A DNA stretch of 64,000 bases from Bacillota bacterium (GTDB lineage Bacteria > Bacillota > Sulfobacillia > Sulfobacillales > Sulfobacillaceae). The position numbers and the translations under genes were made by a program. Positions 20,712-26,160 of this stretch are shown here, in pieces; the first letter of the stretch is position 1; every line of letters starts with the position of its first letter. The stretch lies in assembly GCA_021820485.1 (NCBI GenBank), contig JAKADO010000006.1, positions 1,926 to 65,925 on the forward strand, read 5' to 3'. Under the pieces are notes generated by a model, which was given only the letters and a program-made list of their open reading frames with translations, had not been told where the DNA came from and ran no database searches.

Positions 20712-21554
20712 TCACGGAGCCTCCGGCGCAATCCCATCCGCCTCCGACAAAATCTGCCGAGCCCGTTCCACCAAGGGGCGGTCCACCATCTTTCCCTCCA
20801 CACGGGCGGCCCCAGCCCCCTGGATCGCTCCCAGCACAGCCTGAGCCCAGGCGACATCCTCCGCCGTGGGAGCGTATGCCGCGTGAACCGGGGCGATTTG
20901 CTTGGGATGAATCACCATTTTCCCCGCCATGCCCAGGGCTCGCCCGCGTTGCGCGGATGCCAAAAGAGCCTCGGCATCGTCAATGGCGGGATATACCGCA
21001 TCAATCGGCCCGCCCCAGTTCCAGCACCGGGAGGCCAGCGCAATGAAGCTCCGCGGCATAGTAAGCTCCGTTTCATCGGGCATTTCGCCCAATGCCACGT
21101 CATTGCGATAGTCGAGCGCCCCAAACGCCAGGCGGGATGGCCCCTCAAGCCTCCACGGGCGGGAAACATCCCATAGGTCCCCCAGGCCGGCTGCGGTCTC
21201 CACAATCAAGAGGAACCGACCTCGGATCCCCCATTGGCGCAAGCGCTCCACGGCCTGACGACTCGCTTTGGGGACCACCCAGCGCGCCTCCCCATCCGGG
21301 AACGCGCGGCTCAACCGCTGAACATCCTCCGCTCCCCAATCGGTATCCACCCCATTGACCCGGATCCATGGGATGCGCGGGAGCGGGCCCGACAACAATT
21401 GAGCCAGCGTGTCGCGCGCTGTGGTCTTGGCATCGTCAGGAACCGCATCCTCGAGATCCCAAATGACCTGATCGGCCCCGCTAGCCAGTGCCTTGAGACA
21501 CCGATCGGGCCGGTCTCCGGGTGCATAGAGCCAAGTGCGAACCGAATCAGGCAT
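20712..21554 (-). CDS. CitE/HpcH-family acyl-CoA lyase (citryl/citramalyl/malyl-CoA lyase-like)
   Basis: LYAPGDRP, DLEDAV, IVETAAG, GALDY, GKMVIHPKQ. Confidence 0.85.
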   Translation of the reverse strand: MPDSVRTWLYAPGDRPDRCLKALASGADQVIWDLEDAVPDDAKTTARDTLAQLLSGPLPRIPWIRVNGVDTDWGAEDVQRLSRAFPDGEARWVVPKASRQAVERLRQWGIRGRFLLIVETAAGLGDLWDVSRPWRLEGPSRLAFGALDYRNDVALGEMPDETELTMPRSFIALASRCWNWGGPIDAVYPAIDDAEALLASAQRGRALGMAGKMVIHPKQIAPVHAAYAPTAEDVAWAQAVLGAIQGAGAARVEGKMVDRPLVERARQILSEADGIAPEAP

Positions 21555-22056
21555 CGTTGGCGCCCTCCAACTGCGGCCGCGGAATGCTGGGCCCCTTCCC
21601 CCGCTTATACACCATAACGGTGCGGATGAAGGATATCACCACCTGGCCGTCCTGGTTGAACCCGATTGTCTTCACCTTCACGATGCCGACGTCCGGCCGC
21701 GAGCGGGACTCGCGCCGTTCCAAGACCTCGGATTGGGAATAGAGCGTGTCTCCTTCAAAAACCGGATGCGGTAGCGTCACGTCAGTCCATCCCAAATTGG
21801 CGAACACGTTTTGCGAGATGTCCGTGACGCTTTGCCCCGTGATGAGCGCCAGCGTAAACGTCGAGTCCACCAGCGGCTTTTTAAAGCTGGTTTGGCTGGC
21901 GTATGCGTGGTCGAAATGAATGGGCGCCGTGTTTTGCGTCAGCAGCGTAAACCAGATGTTGTCCGTGGTCGTAATGGTGCGCCCCAAAGGATGGCGATAC
22001 ACATCACCCTCTTCGAAGTCTTCAAAGAATCGGCCGTGCCAACCTTCGCGAATCAT
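21547..22056 (-). CDS. MaoC-family (R)-specific enoyl-CoA hydratase, RipB-like
   Basis: GRFFEDF..GD.Y.H..GRTIT.TDNIWFTLLT.N..PIHFD; 8-bp overlap with the citE start; start moved to ATG 22056. Confidence 0.85.
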   Translation of the reverse strand: MIREGWHGRFFEDFEEGDVYRHPLGRTITTTDNIWFTLLTQNTAPIHFDHAYASQTSFKKPLVDSTFTLALITGQSVTDISQNVFANLGWTDVTLPHPVFEGDTLYSQSEVLERRESRSRPDVGIVKVKTIGFNQDGQVVISFIRTVMVYKRGKGPSIPRPQLEGANDA

Positions 22057-22092
22057 GTCCTCACCCCTTCTTCCGCGTGACACGCGGCATCG

Positions 22093-23058
22093 TTACGGAA
22101 TCAGCAGAAGCTTGCCGATCGTTTCCCGAGATTCGAGGCGGCGCTGCGCCTCGGCGGCTTCGGCCAGCGCCCAGCGGCTGTCGATGGTCACTGCGAGATC
22201 CCGGCGCGCCAGCGCACCTAGGACAAAGGCGGCCCGTTCCAGAAACTCGACACGCGAGGCGGTATAGTGCCTGATGGATGGACGCACAATCGCATGCGAC
22301 CGCTGTCCGAGCGCCATCAGATCCACCGGGTCCATGACCCCCCCAGCCTGGCCGTAGCTGACCAAGGTGCCGCGGACGCGGAGAGCCCTCAAGTCCGCGG
22401 CAAACGTTGGCTTGCCCACCGCGTCGTAAATCACGTCCACGCCCTCGCCATTTGTTAACGCGTTCACCCGCACCGCGAAATCCTCTTTCGTATAGACGAT
22501 GGCAACATCCGCCCCAGCCTCCCGCACAATCTGAGCCTTCGCTTCGGTAGACGCTGTGCCATAGACCACGGCACCCAGCTTTTTCGCCATTCGCACCAAC
22601 ATCAAACCCACCCCGCCCGCGGCGGCATGAACGAGCACGCGGTCCCCCGCCCGAATCGAATAGACTCCATAGGCGAGCATGTGGGCTGTCATGCCTTGAA
22701 AAAGGCCCGCCGCAGCGGTCTCCGAATCCAAGTGAGGCGGAAGTTTCACCAGCTTGGTCTCGGGGACCGCCATATAATCGGCATAAGCCCCTTGAGGTCC
22801 TGCGACAGCGACGCGGTCGCCCGGCGCGGTCGAATTCACCTCCGAACCGACCCGCTGGACAACCCCGGCCGCCTCCTGTCCAGGAATGAACGGGAGGGGC
22901 ATCGCATAGATCCCAATGCGCTGGTATATGTCGATGAAGTTCACCCCGATGGCCTCCGTTTTGACCAGCACGTCATGGGGTCCGAGCGTCGGCACCGGCG
23001 TCTCCTCAAAGCGAAGCTGTTCAGCACCACCCAACCGATGCACCCACTGCGCCTTCAT
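22093..23058 (-). CDS. qor: NADPH:quinone oxidoreductase (MDR, zeta-crystallin-like)
   Basis: GVNFIDIY, PG.EAAG, HAAAGGVG, IGKLLL. Confidence 0.88.
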   Translation of the reverse strand: MKAQWVHRLGGAEQLRFEETPVPTLGPHDVLVKTEAIGVNFIDIYQRIGIYAMPLPFIPGQEAAGVVQRVGSEVNSTAPGDRVAVAGPQGAYADYMAVPETKLVKLPPHLDSETAAAGLFQGMTAHMLAYGVYSIRAGDRVLVHAAAGGVGLMLVRMAKKLGAVVYGTASTEAKAQIVREAGADVAIVYTKEDFAVRVNALTNGEGVDVIYDAVGKPTFAADLRALRVRGTLVSYGQAGGVMDPVDLMALGQRSHAIVRPSIRHYTASRVEFLERAAFVLGALARRDLAVTIDSRWALAEAAEAQRRLESRETIGKLLLIP

Positions 23059-23218
23059 ACTCCAACCCCCTTCTTCATCACCGGCCTCGCCACGGCAGGA
23101 ACACTTGGTGCCATTCTAGCACCTCGGATGGAAAAAGTGAGCGGAGCCCCGCCGTGCGGCCCCTCCCTCTCACAGAATCCTCCCCTGGCTGTAGACTAAA
23201 ATGGCATTTCAATCTCAG

Positions 23219-23316
23219 CCCTTATCAAGAGCGGTCGAGGGAAAGGCCCGATGATGCCGCACCAACCGGTCTAGCGATACGGTGCTAAGTCCGACCCCTG
23301 AGGGGGAAAGATAGGG
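23219..23316 (+). ncRNA. SAM-I (S-box) riboswitch
   Basis: P1 CCTTATC/GATAGGG; AAGAG; P2 GCGGT/GCCGC with kink-turn CGAG/GATGA; CAACC...GGTGCT P3; AAGTCC pseudoknot strand; P4 CCCC-TGA-GGGG; collinear with the SAM-I consensus. Confidence 0.9.
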
Positions 23317-23372
23317 ACAGCCGCCCACCCTGCGCGGATCTTGATAACGGCTCCTAAAAGGAGCGTTTATTC

Positions 23373-23735
23373 ATGCCAGCTTACAAGCCCCGCACGCAAC
23401 TCGTGCAATCCCTGATCCAAATTACCCCGTGGGACCGTCGCCATTACATTGAGGATCTCATGCGCCTCGAACAGCATCTCGAGTCCCCGCCTTCAAATTT
23501 CGCATCCGGATTGGCGCGCAAGAACCTCTCGCACGCGTATCCAGTTGAAACAGCCGCTCTCCAGAGGGAGCTTCACGGCAATCTTGTCCCGCTGCCTGTC
23601 CTTTACGCCCGTCTGGCTGCCCACCATCATGACCAGCAAGCCGCTGAAGCAGCCGAGCGTGAGCAGGAACGTGTCGAAGAAGCGCAGCGATATGCCCAAT
23701 GGATTGAAGGCGGCGGCCCGCCGCCTTTTCCTTGA
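23373..23735 (+). CDS. Hypothetical protein (120 aa) directly downstream of the SAM-I riboswitch
   Basis: AAAGGAG RBS, ATG, GC3-biased codons, helical charged C-terminus; no family recognised. Confidence 0.75.
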   Translation: MPAYKPRTQLVQSLIQITPWDRRHYIEDLMRLEQHLESPPSNFASGLARKNLSHAYPVETAALQRELHGNLVPLPVLYARLAAHHHDQQAAEAAEREQERVEEAQRYAQWIEGGGPPPFP

Positions 23736-23821
23736 TTTGTTCCCCTTGTCATTGCTAGGGTGTACCCTAAAAAGGGGGTACAAACGAAAGTGAAGAGGCA
23801 CCGCCCTAAGGAGGCATATCT

Positions 23822-24984
23822 ATGGAACCGGTGGTTGTCTCGGCGGTTCGCACCGCGATTGGCCGAGATGCGGCGCCTTTCGCGACACGCCCGCCCATGT
23901 GCTGGGAGCCGCGGTCATCCGGGAGGCGCAGGAGCGGGCGGGAATTGATCCCGCAACGCTAGACGACGTATACTTCGGCAACTGTTTCGCGGAAGATGGC
24001 AACCTCGCCCGCGTGGCGGCATTGGCCGCCGACTTGCCTTTCAGCGTACCGGGGATGACCGTTGATCGGCAGTGCGGTTCTGGCCTGACCGCGATCAACC
24101 TGGCTGCGCAGGCCATTCGGGCAGGGGAAGGCCGCGTGTATATTGTCGGCGGGGCAGAAAACTTGACGCAGCGTCCCTTCATGATGGCGCGCAGCAAGAA
24201 GGCCTATGACCGCAATCCGCCGCAGTTTCTTCGGCTGAGGCTGGCCCCTGAAGCCATTGGCGATCCCCCTATGGGAATCACCGCCGAAAATTTGGCGGAA
24301 CAATATGGAATCAGTCGCGAAGAACAGGACCATTACGCCTGGGAGAGCCAGCGCCGGATGGCGCATGCGATGGAGCGTGGATACTTTTCCGAACAAATTC
24401 TGCCGATGGCTGTCCTGCCTGGACAAGGCGGGGAAGGGATGTTTCGCACCGATGAACATCCGCGTCCCAACACCACGCTTGAGGGATTGGCTCGCTTGGC
24501 CCCGGTGTTTAAGGCAGCCGGAACTGTGACCGCGGGAAATAGCTCCGGCATCAATGACGGAGCTGCGGCATTGGTGATGATGGAGGAAACCGAGGCACAC
24601 CGACTGGGGCTGAGTCCTCTGGCGCGCATCCGCGCCTCGGCGGTCGTCGGAGTGGATCCGCAAGTCATGGGCATTGGTCCGGTTCCCGCGATTCGCAAAC
24701 TCTTGGCCAAAACTGGGCTTCGGCTCGAGGACATTGACATCATCGAGTTGAACGAAGCGTTCGCGGCCCAAGTCATCGCCTGCGATCGTGAACTGCGCTT
24801 TGACCGCAATCGGTTGAATCCCAACGGCGGCGCGATTGCACACGGCCACCCCATCGCCGCTACCGGTGCCATTTTAGCAACCAAGCTCCTCTACGAAATG
24901 AAGCGCCATGGCGCCAAGCGCGGCATTGTCGCTGCTTGCATTGGAGGCGGCCAAGGCATCGCCACCTTGTTTGAGCGAGACTAA
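23822..24984 (+). pseudogene. Acetyl-CoA C-acyltransferase (thiolase) with a single frameshift near codon 16-17 (pseudogene or sequence error)
   Basis: AAGGAGG-ATG 23822 gives MEPVVVSAVRTAIGRD, and a different frame continues GAFRDTPAHVLGAA; DRQCGSG, NEAFAAQ, GHPIAATG and CIGGGQG are intact; span 1163 nt is not a multiple of 3. Confidence 0.8.
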
Positions 24985-25008
24985 CAACTAAAGGCAGGAG
25001 AGGAAACT

Positions 25009-26160
25009 ATGGACTTTACCCTATCTCCCGAGATTCTACAAATGAAAGCCGCCGTGCGGGACTTCATCACCCACGAAGTGGAACCAGCCGCCCGACGGAT
25101 TGAGGAAGAGGATCAGGTGCCAGATTCGCTGATCGAAGCTTCGCGCGCGCTGGGGCTGTTCGGCATCAGCATACCGGAGGAGTACGGCGGATTGGGACTG
25201 TCAATGGTGGACAAGTGTGCCATCTTCGAGGAACTGGGACAGACCATCAATGGCTACACCACCATTTTAGGAGCCCATAACGGGATTGGCTCAGTGGGCA
25301 TTGTCACCTTCGGAAGCCCCGAACAGAAGTCTCGGTATTTGCCTCGGATGGCATCGGGGGAATGGGTGGGGGCCTTTGCCTTGACAGAGCCGGAGGCGGG
25401 CTCCAATGCCGCGGCCATTCGCACCACCGCAACGAAGAAGGGCACTCGGTACGTCCTCAATGGACAGAAAATTTATATCACCAATGCCCCCGAGGCGCAC
25501 GTCTTCACCGTGATGGCGGTGACGGACCCCTATCGGGGTGCCAAAGGGATTACCTCATTCATTGTGGAAAAGACCTTCCCCGGATTCCGCGTGGGGACTG
25601 TCGAGAAAAAGATGGGGCTGCACGGTTCGCACACGGCCCAACTCTATTTTGAAGATCTGGAGGTTCCCGAGGAAAACGTGCTGGGTCAAGAGGGCGAGGG
25701 ATATGTCAACGCGCTGAAGATTCTTGCCAATGGCCGAGCAGGGCTGGCAGCCCGCGCACTGGGCTCCTGTCAGTACCTGCTCGATCGGTCCACACGCTAC
25801 GCGCTGGAGCGCCAGCAGTTTGAGAAGCCGATTTTCGAGCAGCAAATCATCCAGCATTATCTAGCGGAGATGGCGACAGAAATCGAGACACTGCGGTGGA
25901 TGACCTACCGCGTGGCTTGGATGGCGGACCAAGGCGCCAACGTCATCAAAGAGGCGGCCATGCTTAAGCTCTACGGCTCGGAAGTGTACAATCGCGTAGC
26001 CGACAAGGCGGTGCAAATCCATGGCGGCATCGGCTATATCGCTGATTACCCCATCGAGCGCTTCTATCGCGATGCACGAATTACCCGCATTTATGAAGGC
26101 ACATCAGAGATACAGAAGAACATCATCGCCGCTCAATTGAAAAAGGAATATGCCGAATAA
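25009..26160 (+). CDS. Acyl-CoA dehydrogenase
   Basis: AFALTEPEAGSNA, NGQKIYIT, QIHGGIGY, IYEGTSEIQK. Confidence 0.93.
   Translation: MDFTLSPEILQMKAAVRDFITHEVEPAARRIEEEDQVPDSLIEASRALGLFGISIPEEYGGLGLSMVDKCAIFEELGQTINGYTTILGAHNGIGSVGIVTFGSPEQKSRYLPRMASGEWVGAFALTEPEAGSNAAAIRTTATKKGTRYVLNGQKIYITNAPEAHVFTVMAVTDPYRGAKGITSFIVEKTFPGFRVGTVEKKMGLHGSHTAQLYFEDLEVPEENVLGQEGEGYVNALKILANGRAGLAARALGSCQYLLDRSTRYALERQQFEKPIFEQQIIQHYLAEMATEIETLRWMTYRVAWMADQGANVIKEAAMLKLYGSEVYNRVADKAVQIHGGIGYIADYPIERFYRDARITRIYEGTSEIQKNIIAAQLKKEYAE

What the first reader, a model, noticed from the sequence alone, without database searches (positions are those of the whole stretch)
23219..23735. SAM-I riboswitch controlling a 120-aa orphan gene with no known sulfur or methionine function
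Seen: a full SAM-I aptamer ends 56 nt before the start of a well-formed ORF (RBS, GC3 bias), and the next gene appears to have its own promoter region. Established: SAM-I riboswitches almost always precede methionine, cysteine or SAM synthesis, transport or salvage genes. Inference: this protein may be an unrecognised SAM/Met-pathway component (regulator, adaptor or small enzyme), or it may have captured a switch from a lost met gene.
Basis: partly seen in the sequence, partly recalled or inferred. Interest (0 to 1): 0.75.

Follow-up and report, generated by a model that had tools for sequence, protein, structure and literature searches.

The report
SAM riboswitch guarding unknown small protein
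A genuine SAM-sensing RNA switch sits in front of a 120-residue helical protein that is not an orphan: it belongs to a small, unannotated family of Bacillota-type proteins that nearly always carry the same switch, so it is very probably made when SAM or methionine runs short, though its job is unknown.

Summary
The SAM-I aptamer is real (window 23219-23317, RF00162, 69.8 bits against a gathering score of 44.4). It ends 55 nt before the ATG of a 120-aa ORF.

The ORF is not an orphan. An exhaustive HMMER scan finds 58 clusters of ~110-140-aa relatives with conserved motifs, and AlphaFold gives pLDDT 93.6. None is annotated in Pfam, NCBIfam, PHROGs or PADLOC, and no fold match exists.

11 of 14 distinct family members with readable upstream DNA (9 of 11 lineages below 50% identity) have a full SAM-I aptamer upstream on the same strand. 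Gene neighbourhoods are unrelated and expression platforms differ (terminators in Clostridia-type loci, Shine-Dalgarno sequestration in the window's group). The "captured relic" reading is rejected.

In the window the switch most likely acts on translation. A hairpin buries the SD, and a conserved 12-bp alternative helix competes with it at nearly equal energy. A strong terminator closes the unit, so it holds a single gene.

The "GC3 bias" claim fails. The window copy also carries a P3 mismatch and a 33-nt deletion at the ORF end. The protein's function stays unknown.

The parts
23197..23202 (+). Candidate -10 box (TAAAAT) of the leader promoter, 16 nt before the aptamer. There is no good -35.
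   Evidence: Read from the sequence. The consensus scan did not report it, so this is weak. In relative L022 a TTGGCA-17-GATAAT promoter-like site lies about 25 nt before the aptamer.
23219..23317 (+). SAM-I (S-box) aptamer: P1 23220-23226/23310-23316, plus P2, P3 and P4.
   Evidence: RF00162, 69.8 bits against gathering score 44.4, E = 3.1e-14, full model. Pair list. Eleven family aptamers show compensatory changes in 11 of 24 pairs.
23262..23262 (+). Window-specific C (G elsewhere) that turns the P3 pair 23262-23285 into a C.C mismatch, next to the conserved C-A-A of the P3 5' strand.
   Evidence: Strain alignment. RNA-derived contig with G. All ten other family aptamers have G-C. Score is 78.1 bits with G against 69.8 with C.
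23218..23230 (+). 5' arm of the alternative ('ON') helix: the P1 5' strand plus J1/2 (G-CC-c-UUAUCAAGA).
   Evidence: MFE fold. Constrained folds. Duplex energy -14.9 kcal/mol. The same element occurs in L027 and L022.
23321..23337 (+). Small linker hairpin between the aptamer and the switching element. It is not conserved in relatives.
   Evidence: Folds.
23339..23351 (+). 3' arm of the alternative helix (UCUUGAUAA-c-GGC). It overlaps the 5' arm of the SD sequestor. Conserved as CUCUUGAUAG-c-GGC in L027 and UCUUGGUAA-a-GGC in L022, while the surrounding linker is unrelated.
23343..23371 (+). SD-sequestor hairpin ('OFF'). Core GCUCCU/AGGAGC at 23350-23364, extended by GAUAA/UUAUU, and ending 1 nt before the ATG. 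The simple scan also flags it as terminator-like (tail GUUUAUUC).
   Evidence: (-11.7 kcal/mol locally).
23357..23363 (+). Shine-Dalgarno sequence AAAGGAG, 9 nt before the ATG, inside the 3' arm of the sequestor.
   Evidence: Sequence. Pairing state in the ON and OFF folds.
23373..23735 (+). Gene for a 120-aa all-helical protein of an unannotated family. Motifs: TxFVxDRLxETxW, RxYIxDLxxLE, YPVE, a long charged helix, and a C-terminal W-x3-GG.
   Evidence: family alignment; AlphaFold pLDDT 93.6.
23706..23738 (+). Intrinsic-terminator-like hairpin (stem 23706-23728, 10 bp, 7 G-C) plus a T-rich tail. It overlaps the last codons and the stop codon (TGA 23733-23735).
   Evidence: In strains L010-L012 the same hairpin lies 13 nt after an independent TAA stop.
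23706..23716 (+). Junction of a 33-nt deletion (relative to L010, L011 and L012) between imperfect direct repeats AAGCCGGCGG / AAGGCGGCGG. It replaced the family-typical end ...WIEAGGLP* by ...WIEGGGPPPFP*, which is read through the terminator stem.
   Evidence: Family consensus end W-x3-GG-x-P.

Best explanation
This is a working single-gene S-box unit: promoter, SAM-I aptamer, expression platform, a 120-aa gene, terminator.

**The switch.** When SAM is plentiful it binds the aptamer and locks helix P1. The segment 23339-23355 is then free to pair with the Shine-Dalgarno region, forming a hairpin (23343-23371) that reaches to within 1 nt of the ATG, so ribosomes cannot start. When SAM is scarce, P1 opens and a stronger 12-bp helix forms between the P1 5' strand plus J1/2 (23218-23230) and 23339-23351. 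That helix takes two of the six core pairs and the whole outer stem of the sequestor, leaving only a 4-bp remnant over the SD, and the protein is made.

**The protein.** It is a real, conserved, cytoplasmic all-helical protein: a four-helix N-terminal domain, one long charged helix, and an invariant W-x3-GG tail. It has kept its SAM switch through deep divergence, through relocation in the genome, and through a change of platform type.

**What is shown and what is inferred.** Shown: the aptamer, the family, the conserved association, the two near-isoenergetic folds, and the terminator. Inferred: SAM binding itself, translation rather than termination as the controlled step, and which strand is the anti-sequestor. 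Inferred with low confidence (about 0.3): the protein is a non-enzymatic binding or regulatory factor that adjusts a SAM- or methionine-dependent process during SAM shortage.
For: - **Aptamer:** (69.8 bits, full model; P1-P4 pairs).
- **Family:** (58 clusters, best relatives E = 1e-20 and 7e-14; invariant L29, E66, W110; near-invariant I26, E33, G114, G115; pLDDT 93.6).
- **Association:** SAM-I lies upstream of P0005, P0055, P0061, P0063 and P0066, the L027 protein, the L028, L032 and L033 proteins and P0011. Pairwise identities are mostly 25-45%. Neighbourhoods are unrelated. The aptamers are diverged and show compensatory pairs.
- **Platforms:** terminators with U-runs in L014, L019, L025, L028, L032 and L034. 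SD hairpins without U-runs in L027 and L022.
- **Two-state energies, ON/OFF:** window -54.1/-54.6, G-variant -57.4/-54.7, L027 -59.1/-59.3, L022 -60.5/-54.0 kcal/mol.
- **Duplex energies:** alternative helix -13.3 to -14.9 against P1 -4.1 to -8.2. The 9-10-nt complement is conserved in three leaders whose linkers are otherwise unrelated.
- **Terminator:**
- **Weak transcript evidence:** an RNA-run contig spans 23224-23522, and others lie inside the ORF.
Against: - No experiment: SAM binding and regulation are inferred from homology to RF00162.
- The window copy has a C.C mismatch in P3 next to the ligand pocket, which may weaken this particular allele.
- In the predicted ON fold the SD is still in a 4-bp remnant hairpin.
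- A canonical competitor also exists: the P1 3' region paired with the anti-SD, at -8.1 to -9.3 kcal/mol against -8.7 to -10.6 for anti-SD with SD. The identity of the anti-sequestor is therefore not settled. Only one-sided changes (A-U to G.U) support the 5'-strand helix, because its 5' arm is frozen by the aptamer.
- The hairpin is followed by GUUUAUUC, so some termination cannot be excluded.
- Three family members (two lineages) have no riboswitch.
- The RNA runs are only guessed to be RNA. Depth is as low as over the neighbouring genes, and DNA carry-over is possible.
- Nothing points to a specific biochemical function.
Confidence: 0.7

Rival explanations
1. In the window the switch acts by premature transcription termination, as in classical Bacillus S-box leaders. 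The GCUCCU/AGGAGC hairpin followed by GUUUAUUC is the terminator, and SD masking is incidental.
For: The consensus scan lists 23350-23364 plus GTTTATTCAT as terminator-like. The Clostridia-type relatives of the same gene clearly use terminators (13-bp stem plus U6).
Against: The core stem has only 6 bp, and the U-run is interrupted and can itself pair with GAUAA. The equivalent hairpins in L027 and L022 are followed by AGAAUAAG and ACCUCC, with no U-run. The SD lies inside the hairpin and the ATG follows 1 nt after the extended stem.
Confidence: 0.22
2. Translation is controlled, but through the canonical strand. At low SAM the P1 3' strand and the bases after it (AGGGAcAGCCG, 23313-23323) pair with the anti-SD (CGGCUCCU, 23348-23355) and free the SD. 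The long 5'-strand helix is then a by-product.
For: Such duplexes exist in all three short leaders (-9.3, -8.1 and -8.9 kcal/mol), close to anti-SD with SD (-10.6, -8.7 and -9.9). This is the arrangement described for P1-regulated riboswitches in general (PMC5049679).
Against: With the 5' strand held single-stranded, the predicted fold still keeps the sequestor in all three leaders. The pairing is interrupted by a bulge or mismatch in each. The 5'-strand helix is 4-6 kcal/mol stronger, and its 3' arm is the best-conserved platform element.
Confidence: 0.3
3. Accidental relic: the switch was captured from a lost met gene and has no functional tie to this ORF.
For: No Met, Cys or SAM gene lies nearby. 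The window allele shows decay-like changes: the P3 mismatch and the ORF tail fused to the terminator.
Against: The same association holds in 9 of 11 lineages below 50% identity, in unrelated neighbourhoods and with different platform types. Other strains have the intact P3 pair.
Confidence: 0.03
4. The real regulatory target is the downstream thiolase / acyl-CoA dehydrogenase operon, reached by read-through. The small ORF is a passenger.
For: Same strand; the thiolase start is 87 nt after the ORF; no consensus promoter was found in the spacer.
Against: A 10-bp G-C-rich terminator hairpin with a T-rich tail lies between them and is kept in both strain forms. No relative has a thiolase or ACAD downstream.
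Confidence: 0.06
5. The ORF is not translated. The riboswitch-led RNA works as a non-coding or trans-acting RNA, like Listeria SreA.
For: GC3 is not elevated. There is no annotated family.
Against: Protein-level conservation spans very divergent DNA. The AlphaFold model has pLDDT 93.6. A good SD is present at the right spacing, and the conserved C-terminal W-x3-GG is kept in both strain forms.
Confidence: 0.02

Closest known systems
Classical S-box (SAM-I) leaders of Bacillus subtilis met genes (yitJ, metI, metE, metK ...); Rfam RF00162
   Same: Same aptamer class, matched over the full model. Same logic: SAM stabilises P1 and turns the downstream gene off. Relatives of this gene in Clostridia-type loci even use the same terminator/antiterminator design.
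   Different: The regulated gene belongs to no known Met, Cys or SAM synthesis, transport or salvage family. In the window's lineage the platform is an SD-sequestering hairpin without a proper U-run. The strongest competitor helix uses the P1 5' strand plus J1/2 rather than the 3' strand, which is the usual shared segment (PMC5049679).
Translational SAM riboswitches that mask the Shine-Dalgarno sequence (SAM-II, SAM-III/SMK box, SAM-V, SAM/SAH). Comparison from established knowledge and the abstracts listed.
   Same: SAM-dependent occlusion of the ribosome-binding site as the output.
   Different: In those classes the SD is part of, or directly abuts, a small pseudoknot or three-way aptamer. 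Here a four-way-junction SAM-I aptamer is coupled to a separate sequestor hairpin through a strand-exchange element.
Riboswitch classes tied to a gene of unknown function, e.g. the azaaromatic (yjdF) riboswitch (PMC5473149)
   Same: A conserved riboswitch-gene pairing in which the protein gives no functional clue.
   Different: There the ligand was the unknown. Here the ligand class is known (SAM), so the riboswitch supplies the clue about the protein.

Membership tests
SAM-I riboswitch (Rfam RF00162) | Covariance-model score above the curated gathering threshold over the full model | tested here: met
   69.8 bits against 44.4, model 1-108, E = 3.1e-14. The G allele of the same species scores 78.1 bits.
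SAM-I riboswitch (Rfam RF00162) | Four-way junction with helices P1-P4 | tested here: met
   P1 has 7 bp, P2 8 bp in two segments, P3 is present but short with mismatches (including the window-specific C.C at 23262-23285), and P4 has 5 bp. Covariation across 11 family aptamers.
SAM-I riboswitch (Rfam RF00162) | Conserved junction and pocket nucleotides (UAUCAAGAG in P1/J1-2, GCAACC in the P3 5' strand, GGUGC in the P3 3' strand, AGAUA in the P1 3' strand) | tested here: met
   All are present in the alignment to the consensus, except G to C at 23262 (ACCAACC instead of gGCAACC). Which of these bases contact SAM is recalled from the published crystal structures and was not tested here.
SAM-I riboswitch (Rfam RF00162) | Binds SAM and discriminates against SAH | not testable with these tools
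   Needs in-line probing, ITC or equilibrium dialysis.
SAM-I riboswitch (Rfam RF00162) | Expression platform with a structure mutually exclusive with P1, upstream of a same-strand gene | tested here: met
   Two exclusive folds lie within 0-6.5 kcal/mol in the window, the G allele, L027 and L022. The gene starts 56 nt after the aptamer.
Terminator-type S-box attenuator (B. subtilis type) | G-C-rich hairpin followed by an uninterrupted U-run soon after the aptamer | tested here: inconclusive
   The window has a 6-bp core stem and then GUUUAUUC. L027 and L022 have no U-run. This feature is clearly met in relatives L014, L019, L025, L028 and L032.
S-box regulon of methionine / cysteine / SAM metabolism genes | Product belongs to a known Met, Cys or SAM synthesis, transport or salvage family | tested here: not met
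   No Pfam, NCBIfam, PHROGs or PADLOC family for the protein or for 52 relatives. No PDB sequence or fold match.
S-box regulon of methionine / cysteine / SAM metabolism genes | The riboswitch-gene association is conserved across distant genomes (the comparative-genomics criterion for regulon membership) | tested here: met
   11 of 14 distinct members, and 9 of 11 lineages below 50% identity.
Orphan (taxonomically restricted) gene | No detectable homologs outside the species | tested here: not met
   58 representative clusters at E <= 1e-3. Relatives occur in biogas, fermentation and other metagenomes and in a Bacillota MAG.

The most novel reading that the evidence does not exclude
The family is the first non-metabolic output of the S-box regulon. 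It would be a small helical binding protein, made only when SAM falls, that restrains or re-targets a SAM-consuming machine, for example a methyltransferase or restriction-modification activity, or MetK itself. It would not make, import or salvage methionine. A sharper version: it is a 'low-SAM alarm' protein of mobile or accessory origin. This fits its patchy distribution, its travel as a self-contained cassette, and neighbours such as Mrr, AbiEii, DndB, a transposase and an integrase in some loci.
Probability: 0.25. Interest if true: 0.75.

Novelty: new variant of a known kind. Interest (0 to 1): 0.58.

Why it matters
SAM-I riboswitches are among the best-understood gene switches, and their targets are used to annotate methionine and SAM metabolism. 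Here a standard SAM-I switch is tied, by conservation rather than by a single case, to a protein family that no database describes and that matches no solved structure and no predicted viral structure.

This gives the family a testable physiological context: it is induced by SAM shortage. It also points to a missing piece of SAM or methionine physiology in Bacillota-type anaerobes and acid-mine organisms.

The same gene is governed by terminator-type and SD-sequestering platforms in different lineages. In the window's lineage the platform may use the P1 5' strand as the exchanged strand. That makes it a compact natural system for comparing how one aptamer is wired to different outputs.

Tried and rejected
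- **Word-indexed homolog search** with the single protein found only self. This was superseded by the exhaustive search.
- **Family libraries.** Pfam, NCBIfam, PHROGs and PADLOC on the protein and on 52 relatives gave only scattered chance hits at E > 0.003.
- **Fold searches.** Foldseek of the full model against PDB and BFVD, and of the N-terminal domain alone against PDB, gave a best E of 0.5-2 with TM-scores normalised to the query below 0.45, so nothing usable. The PDB profile search gave nothing.
- **DNA-mimic or anti-restriction idea.** The family pI ranges from 4.65 to 11.0 with a median of 7.0, so there is no consistent acidity. Rejected as a general property.
- **Phage origin.** No relatives in 2.9 million viral contigs with two profiles.
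- **Second S-box after the gene in L014 and L025** ('CTTATCAAG'). Reading the sequence shows no aptamer, only the promoter region of the Fur-family gene (also no Rfam hit).
- **The search for related loci** with the broad alignments failed because they were too diverse. Narrower alignments gave one genome locus and eight metagenome loci.
- **dN/dS among strains.** Only two substitutions in the ORF (one synonymous, one R65G), which is too few.
- **Unconstrained MFE z-score of the whole leader.** Not different from shuffles (z = 0.02). This is uninformative for a GC-rich riboswitch and was not used.
- **Literature.** No description of this family or of this pairing in the papers searched.

Full report
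**1. The observation**

Rfam's covariance models find one RNA family in the 64-kb window. It is a full-length SAM-I (S-box) aptamer at 23219-23317 on the + strand: 69.8 bits against a gathering score of 44.4, E = 3.1e-14. Mapping the consensus structure onto the sequence gives a 7-bp P1 (23220-23226 with 23310-23316) plus P2, P3 and P4.

The ORF 23373-23735 (+, 120 aa, ATG) starts 56 nt after the aptamer end. It has an AAAGGAG Shine-Dalgarno sequence 9 nt upstream. The coordinates and the core observation are therefore right.

Two side claims are not:
- GC3 of the ORF is 0.59. That equals the window average and is lower than all neighbours (0.67-0.74).
- No consensus promoter was found for the next gene.

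**2. The ORF is a real gene and not an orphan**

The fast word-indexed search found only the protein itself and two strain variants. The exhaustive phmmer scan of 1.84 billion representatives found 58 clusters at E <= 1e-3. Almost all are 110-147 aa and align end to end. The best are P0004 (43% identity, E = 1e-20) and P0005 (39%, E = 7e-14).

The alignment of 52 members shows:
- T-x-F-V-x-D-R-L-x-E-T-x-W and R-x-Y-I-x-D-L-x-x-L-E
- Y-P-V-E
- an invariant Glu (E66)
- a long charged segment
- an invariant Trp followed by G-G near the C-terminus

AlphaFold2 with this alignment gives a very confident all-helical model (pLDDT 93.6, pTM 0.73). It has helices 9-17, 20-37, 43-55 and 57-67, and one long helix 74-112.

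**3. Do homologs also sit behind S-boxes? Yes**

I fetched genomic loci for every family member I could reach and scanned them with Rfam.

| Family member | Locus | SAM-I score (bits) |
|---|---|---|
| P0063 | L014, L018, L034 | 83.2 |
| P0066 | L019 | 85.0 |
| P0061 | L025 | 83.8 |
| P0005 | L022, L023 | 81.1 |
| P0055 | L024 (about 400 nt before the gene) | 61.2 |
| 118-aa relative in a Bacillota MAG | L027 | 78.1 |
| three metagenome relatives | L028, L032, L033 | 82.0, 85.5, 57.9 |
| P0011 | L036 | 81.4 |

All of these aptamers match the full model and lie upstream of the gene on the same strand. L013 (P0004) is cut by the contig end but carries the 3' part of the L027-type aptamer and platform.

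No aptamer was found, even at E <= 0.1, upstream of P0047 (L026), the L035 protein or P0010 (L037). The last two are 69% identical to each other.

Counting the window, 11 of 14 distinct proteins carry the switch. By lineage, that is 9 of 11 lineages that share less than 50% identity.

The loci were chosen by availability, not by riboswitch content. Gene neighbourhoods are unrelated:
- Window: Zn-dependent dehydrogenase, MaoC and HpcH genes on one side, thiolase and acyl-CoA dehydrogenase on the other.
- Clostridia-type loci: FapA upstream; a Fur-family gene, peroxiredoxin and desulfoferrodoxin downstream.
- L022: a BNR-repeat protein.
- L027: Mrr, VIT1, SPFH and ClpP.
- L024: AbiEii, a transposase and DndB.

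The aptamers themselves are diverged. P3 and P4 differ in length, and 11 of 24 consensus pairs show compensatory changes.

From established knowledge, B. subtilis has about a dozen S-box units among roughly 4,200 genes. The chance that an arbitrary gene family shows this pattern is negligible. The cases are related by descent, so the argument rests on retention under selection, not on independent events.

**4. How the switch is wired**

The family uses at least two platform types.

*Terminator type.* L014, L019, L025 and L034 have a 13-bp G-C-rich hairpin plus U6 about 20 nt after the aptamer. L028 and L032 have an 11-bp hairpin plus a U-run just before the SD. This is the classical terminator design.

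*SD-sequestor type.* In the window and its two closest relatives (L027, L022) the platform is short (55-69 nt). It contains a hairpin GGCUCC-loop-GGAGC that buries the SD. L027 and L022 have no U-run after it, and the window has only GUUUAUUC.

Directly 5' of that hairpin, and overlapping it, all three carry a segment complementary to the P1 5' strand plus J1/2:
- UCUUGAUAA-c-GGC in the window
- CUCUUGAUAG-c-GGC in L027
- UCUUGGUAA-a-GGC in L022

The rest of the linker is unrelated among the three.

In the window this gives a 12-bp helix: G23218-C23351, C23219-G23350, C23220-G23349, a C.C mismatch, then U23222...A23230 with A23347...U23339. It appears in the unconstrained MFE.

It cannot coexist with P1, nor with the sequestor, whose pairs G23350-C23364 and C23351-G23363 and outer stem GAUAA/UUAUU it removes.

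| Leader | ON fold (alternative helix), kcal/mol | OFF fold (P1 + sequestor), kcal/mol |
|---|---|---|
| window | -54.1 | -54.6 |
| G allele (L010) | -57.4 | -54.7 |
| L027 | -59.1 | -59.3 |
| L022 | -60.5 | -54.0 |

The two states are nearly isoenergetic without ligand, which is what a ligand-tipped switch needs.

Duplex energies:
- alternative helix: -13.3 to -14.9 kcal/mol
- P1: -4.1 to -8.2 kcal/mol
- canonical competitor (P1 3' region with the anti-SD): -8.1 to -9.3 kcal/mol
- anti-SD with SD: -8.7 to -10.6 kcal/mol

The canonical competitor is the arrangement described as general for P1-regulated switches (PMC5049679). I therefore commit to SAM-dependent SD sequestration as the output, with confidence about 0.65. 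I consider the 5'-strand helix the more likely anti-sequestor, with confidence about 0.45 against 0.30 for the canonical strand.

**5. End of the unit and strain variation**

A 10-bp hairpin with 7 G-C pairs (23706-23728), followed by TTTTCCTTGATTT, overlaps the last codons and the stop.

Strains L010, L011 and L012 of the same species have 33 more bases. There the ORF ends ...WIEAGGLP-TAA, which matches the family's consensus end, and the same hairpin follows 13 nt later.

The window form arose by deletion between the imperfect repeats AAGCCGGCGG and AAGGCGGCGG. It now reads ...WIEGGGPPPFP through the terminator stem and keeps W-x3-GG.

The terminator, and the absence of any conserved downstream gene in relatives, make this a single-gene unit.

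The window allele also has C instead of G at 23262. This breaks a P3 pair that is G-C in four other assemblies, in an RNA-derived contig and in all ten other family aptamers, and it costs 8 bits. It may be a slightly weakened allele or an assembly error.

The species occurs in mine-drainage and mine-tailings metagenomes. Contigs from runs guessed to be RNA cover 23224-23522 (aptamer into ORF) and parts of the ORF. Depth is low and similar to the neighbouring genes, so this is only weak evidence of expression.

**6. What the protein might do**

- No family library recognises any of 52 members.
- The PDB profile search gives nothing.
- Foldseek gives nothing for the full model against PDB and BFVD, or for the N-terminal domain alone (pLDDT 83.6) against PDB.
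- There is no signal peptide or hydrophobic segment in the sequence.
- Family pI ranges from 4.65 to 11.0, so charge is not conserved.
- No relatives turned up in viral contigs.

One member (P0006) is a natural tandem duplication of the whole domain, which hints at a dimer.

A small helical protein with a few invariant acidic and aromatic residues, a conserved C-terminal W-x3-GG and a variable charged helix looks more like a binding or adaptor protein than an enzyme. That is inference, and I give it about 0.3. What is firm is the physiological context: the protein is made when SAM is low.

**7. Comparison and novelty**

The RNA is an ordinary member of RF00162. Three things are not ordinary:
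- its conserved pairing with an undescribed protein family that fails the usual S-box regulon criterion of belonging to a known Met, Cys or SAM function
- the use of both terminator and SD-sequestering platforms for the same gene family
- a platform in the window's lineage whose strongest competitor helix uses the P1 5' strand plus J1/2

I found no description of this family or pairing in the literature available here. That search was limited, so absence of a report is not proof.

I rate it a new variant of a known kind, of moderate to good interest. It turns an unannotated family into a testable SAM-starvation gene.

**8. Caveats**

- Everything on ligand binding and regulation is inferred from sequence, structure prediction and comparative data.
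- Thermodynamic folds ignore co-transcriptional kinetics, the tertiary structure of the aptamer and the binding energy of SAM.

Noticed in passing
window 23822-24984 (thiolase); frameshift between 23869 and 23870: The thiolase gene downstream lacks one G (GATGCGG instead of GATGGCGG) relative to strains L007 and L008, where it is an intact 387-aa gene starting at the ATG equivalent to 23822. In the window, L001 and L010 the N-terminal 26 codons are out of frame, and gene callers start at GTG 23899 (361 aa). This is either a real polymorphism or pseudogenisation, or a recurrent assembly error.
   Followed up: partly
window 23761-23782: A 7-bp hairpin (UGUACCC-UAAAAAGG-GGGUACA) sits in the spacer between the ORF's terminator and the thiolase RBS. 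It is conserved in all strains. A weak promoter-like TTGTCA-16-TAAAAA overlaps it. Its role is unknown.
   Followed up: no
L014 4685-5137, L025 2544-2996, L036 1076-1573: A Fur-family (PerR-like) gene follows the family gene at 325-365 nt in three loci whose family proteins are only about 41-44% identical (P0063 and P0061 against P0011). In L014 and L025 it heads a peroxiredoxin-desulfoferrodoxin cluster. In L027 a VIT-family iron transporter lies just upstream. This could be lineage synteny or a hint of a redox or iron link.
   Followed up: partly
P0006 (278 aa), P0023 (250 aa), P0056 (256 aa): P0006 is a tandem duplication of the whole domain in one polypeptide. P0023 has the domain fused after a helix-turn-helix-like segment plus a truncated metallophosphoesterase-like N-terminus. 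P0056 has a low-complexity tail that is probably a mis-call.
   Followed up: no
L026 (P0047), L037/L038 (P0010), L035: The family members without a riboswitch form two lineages. Two of them, L026 and L037, sit among unannotated small genes; L037 is next to a phage-integrase-like gene (a weak Pfam match) and L026 is near a ThiF/E1-like gene. This suggests a mobile or accessory context for the switch-less copies.
   Followed up: partly
L024 3493-4001: In this locus the SAM-I aptamer and a terminator-like hairpin are followed by about 350 nt of AT-rich sequence before the gene. The neighbourhood holds AbiEii, a Mutator-type transposase and DndB. The riboswitch-gene link is less certain here.
   Followed up: no
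window 20712-23058 (- strand) and 23822-26160 (+ strand): The unit is inserted between two divergent acyl-CoA-type clusters. On one side are an HpcH/citrate-lyase-beta-like gene, a MaoC/mesaconyl-CoA hydratase-like gene and a Zn-dependent quinone-oxidoreductase-like dehydrogenase. On the other are the thiolase and the acyl-CoA dehydrogenase. None is related to sulfur metabolism.
   Followed up: partly
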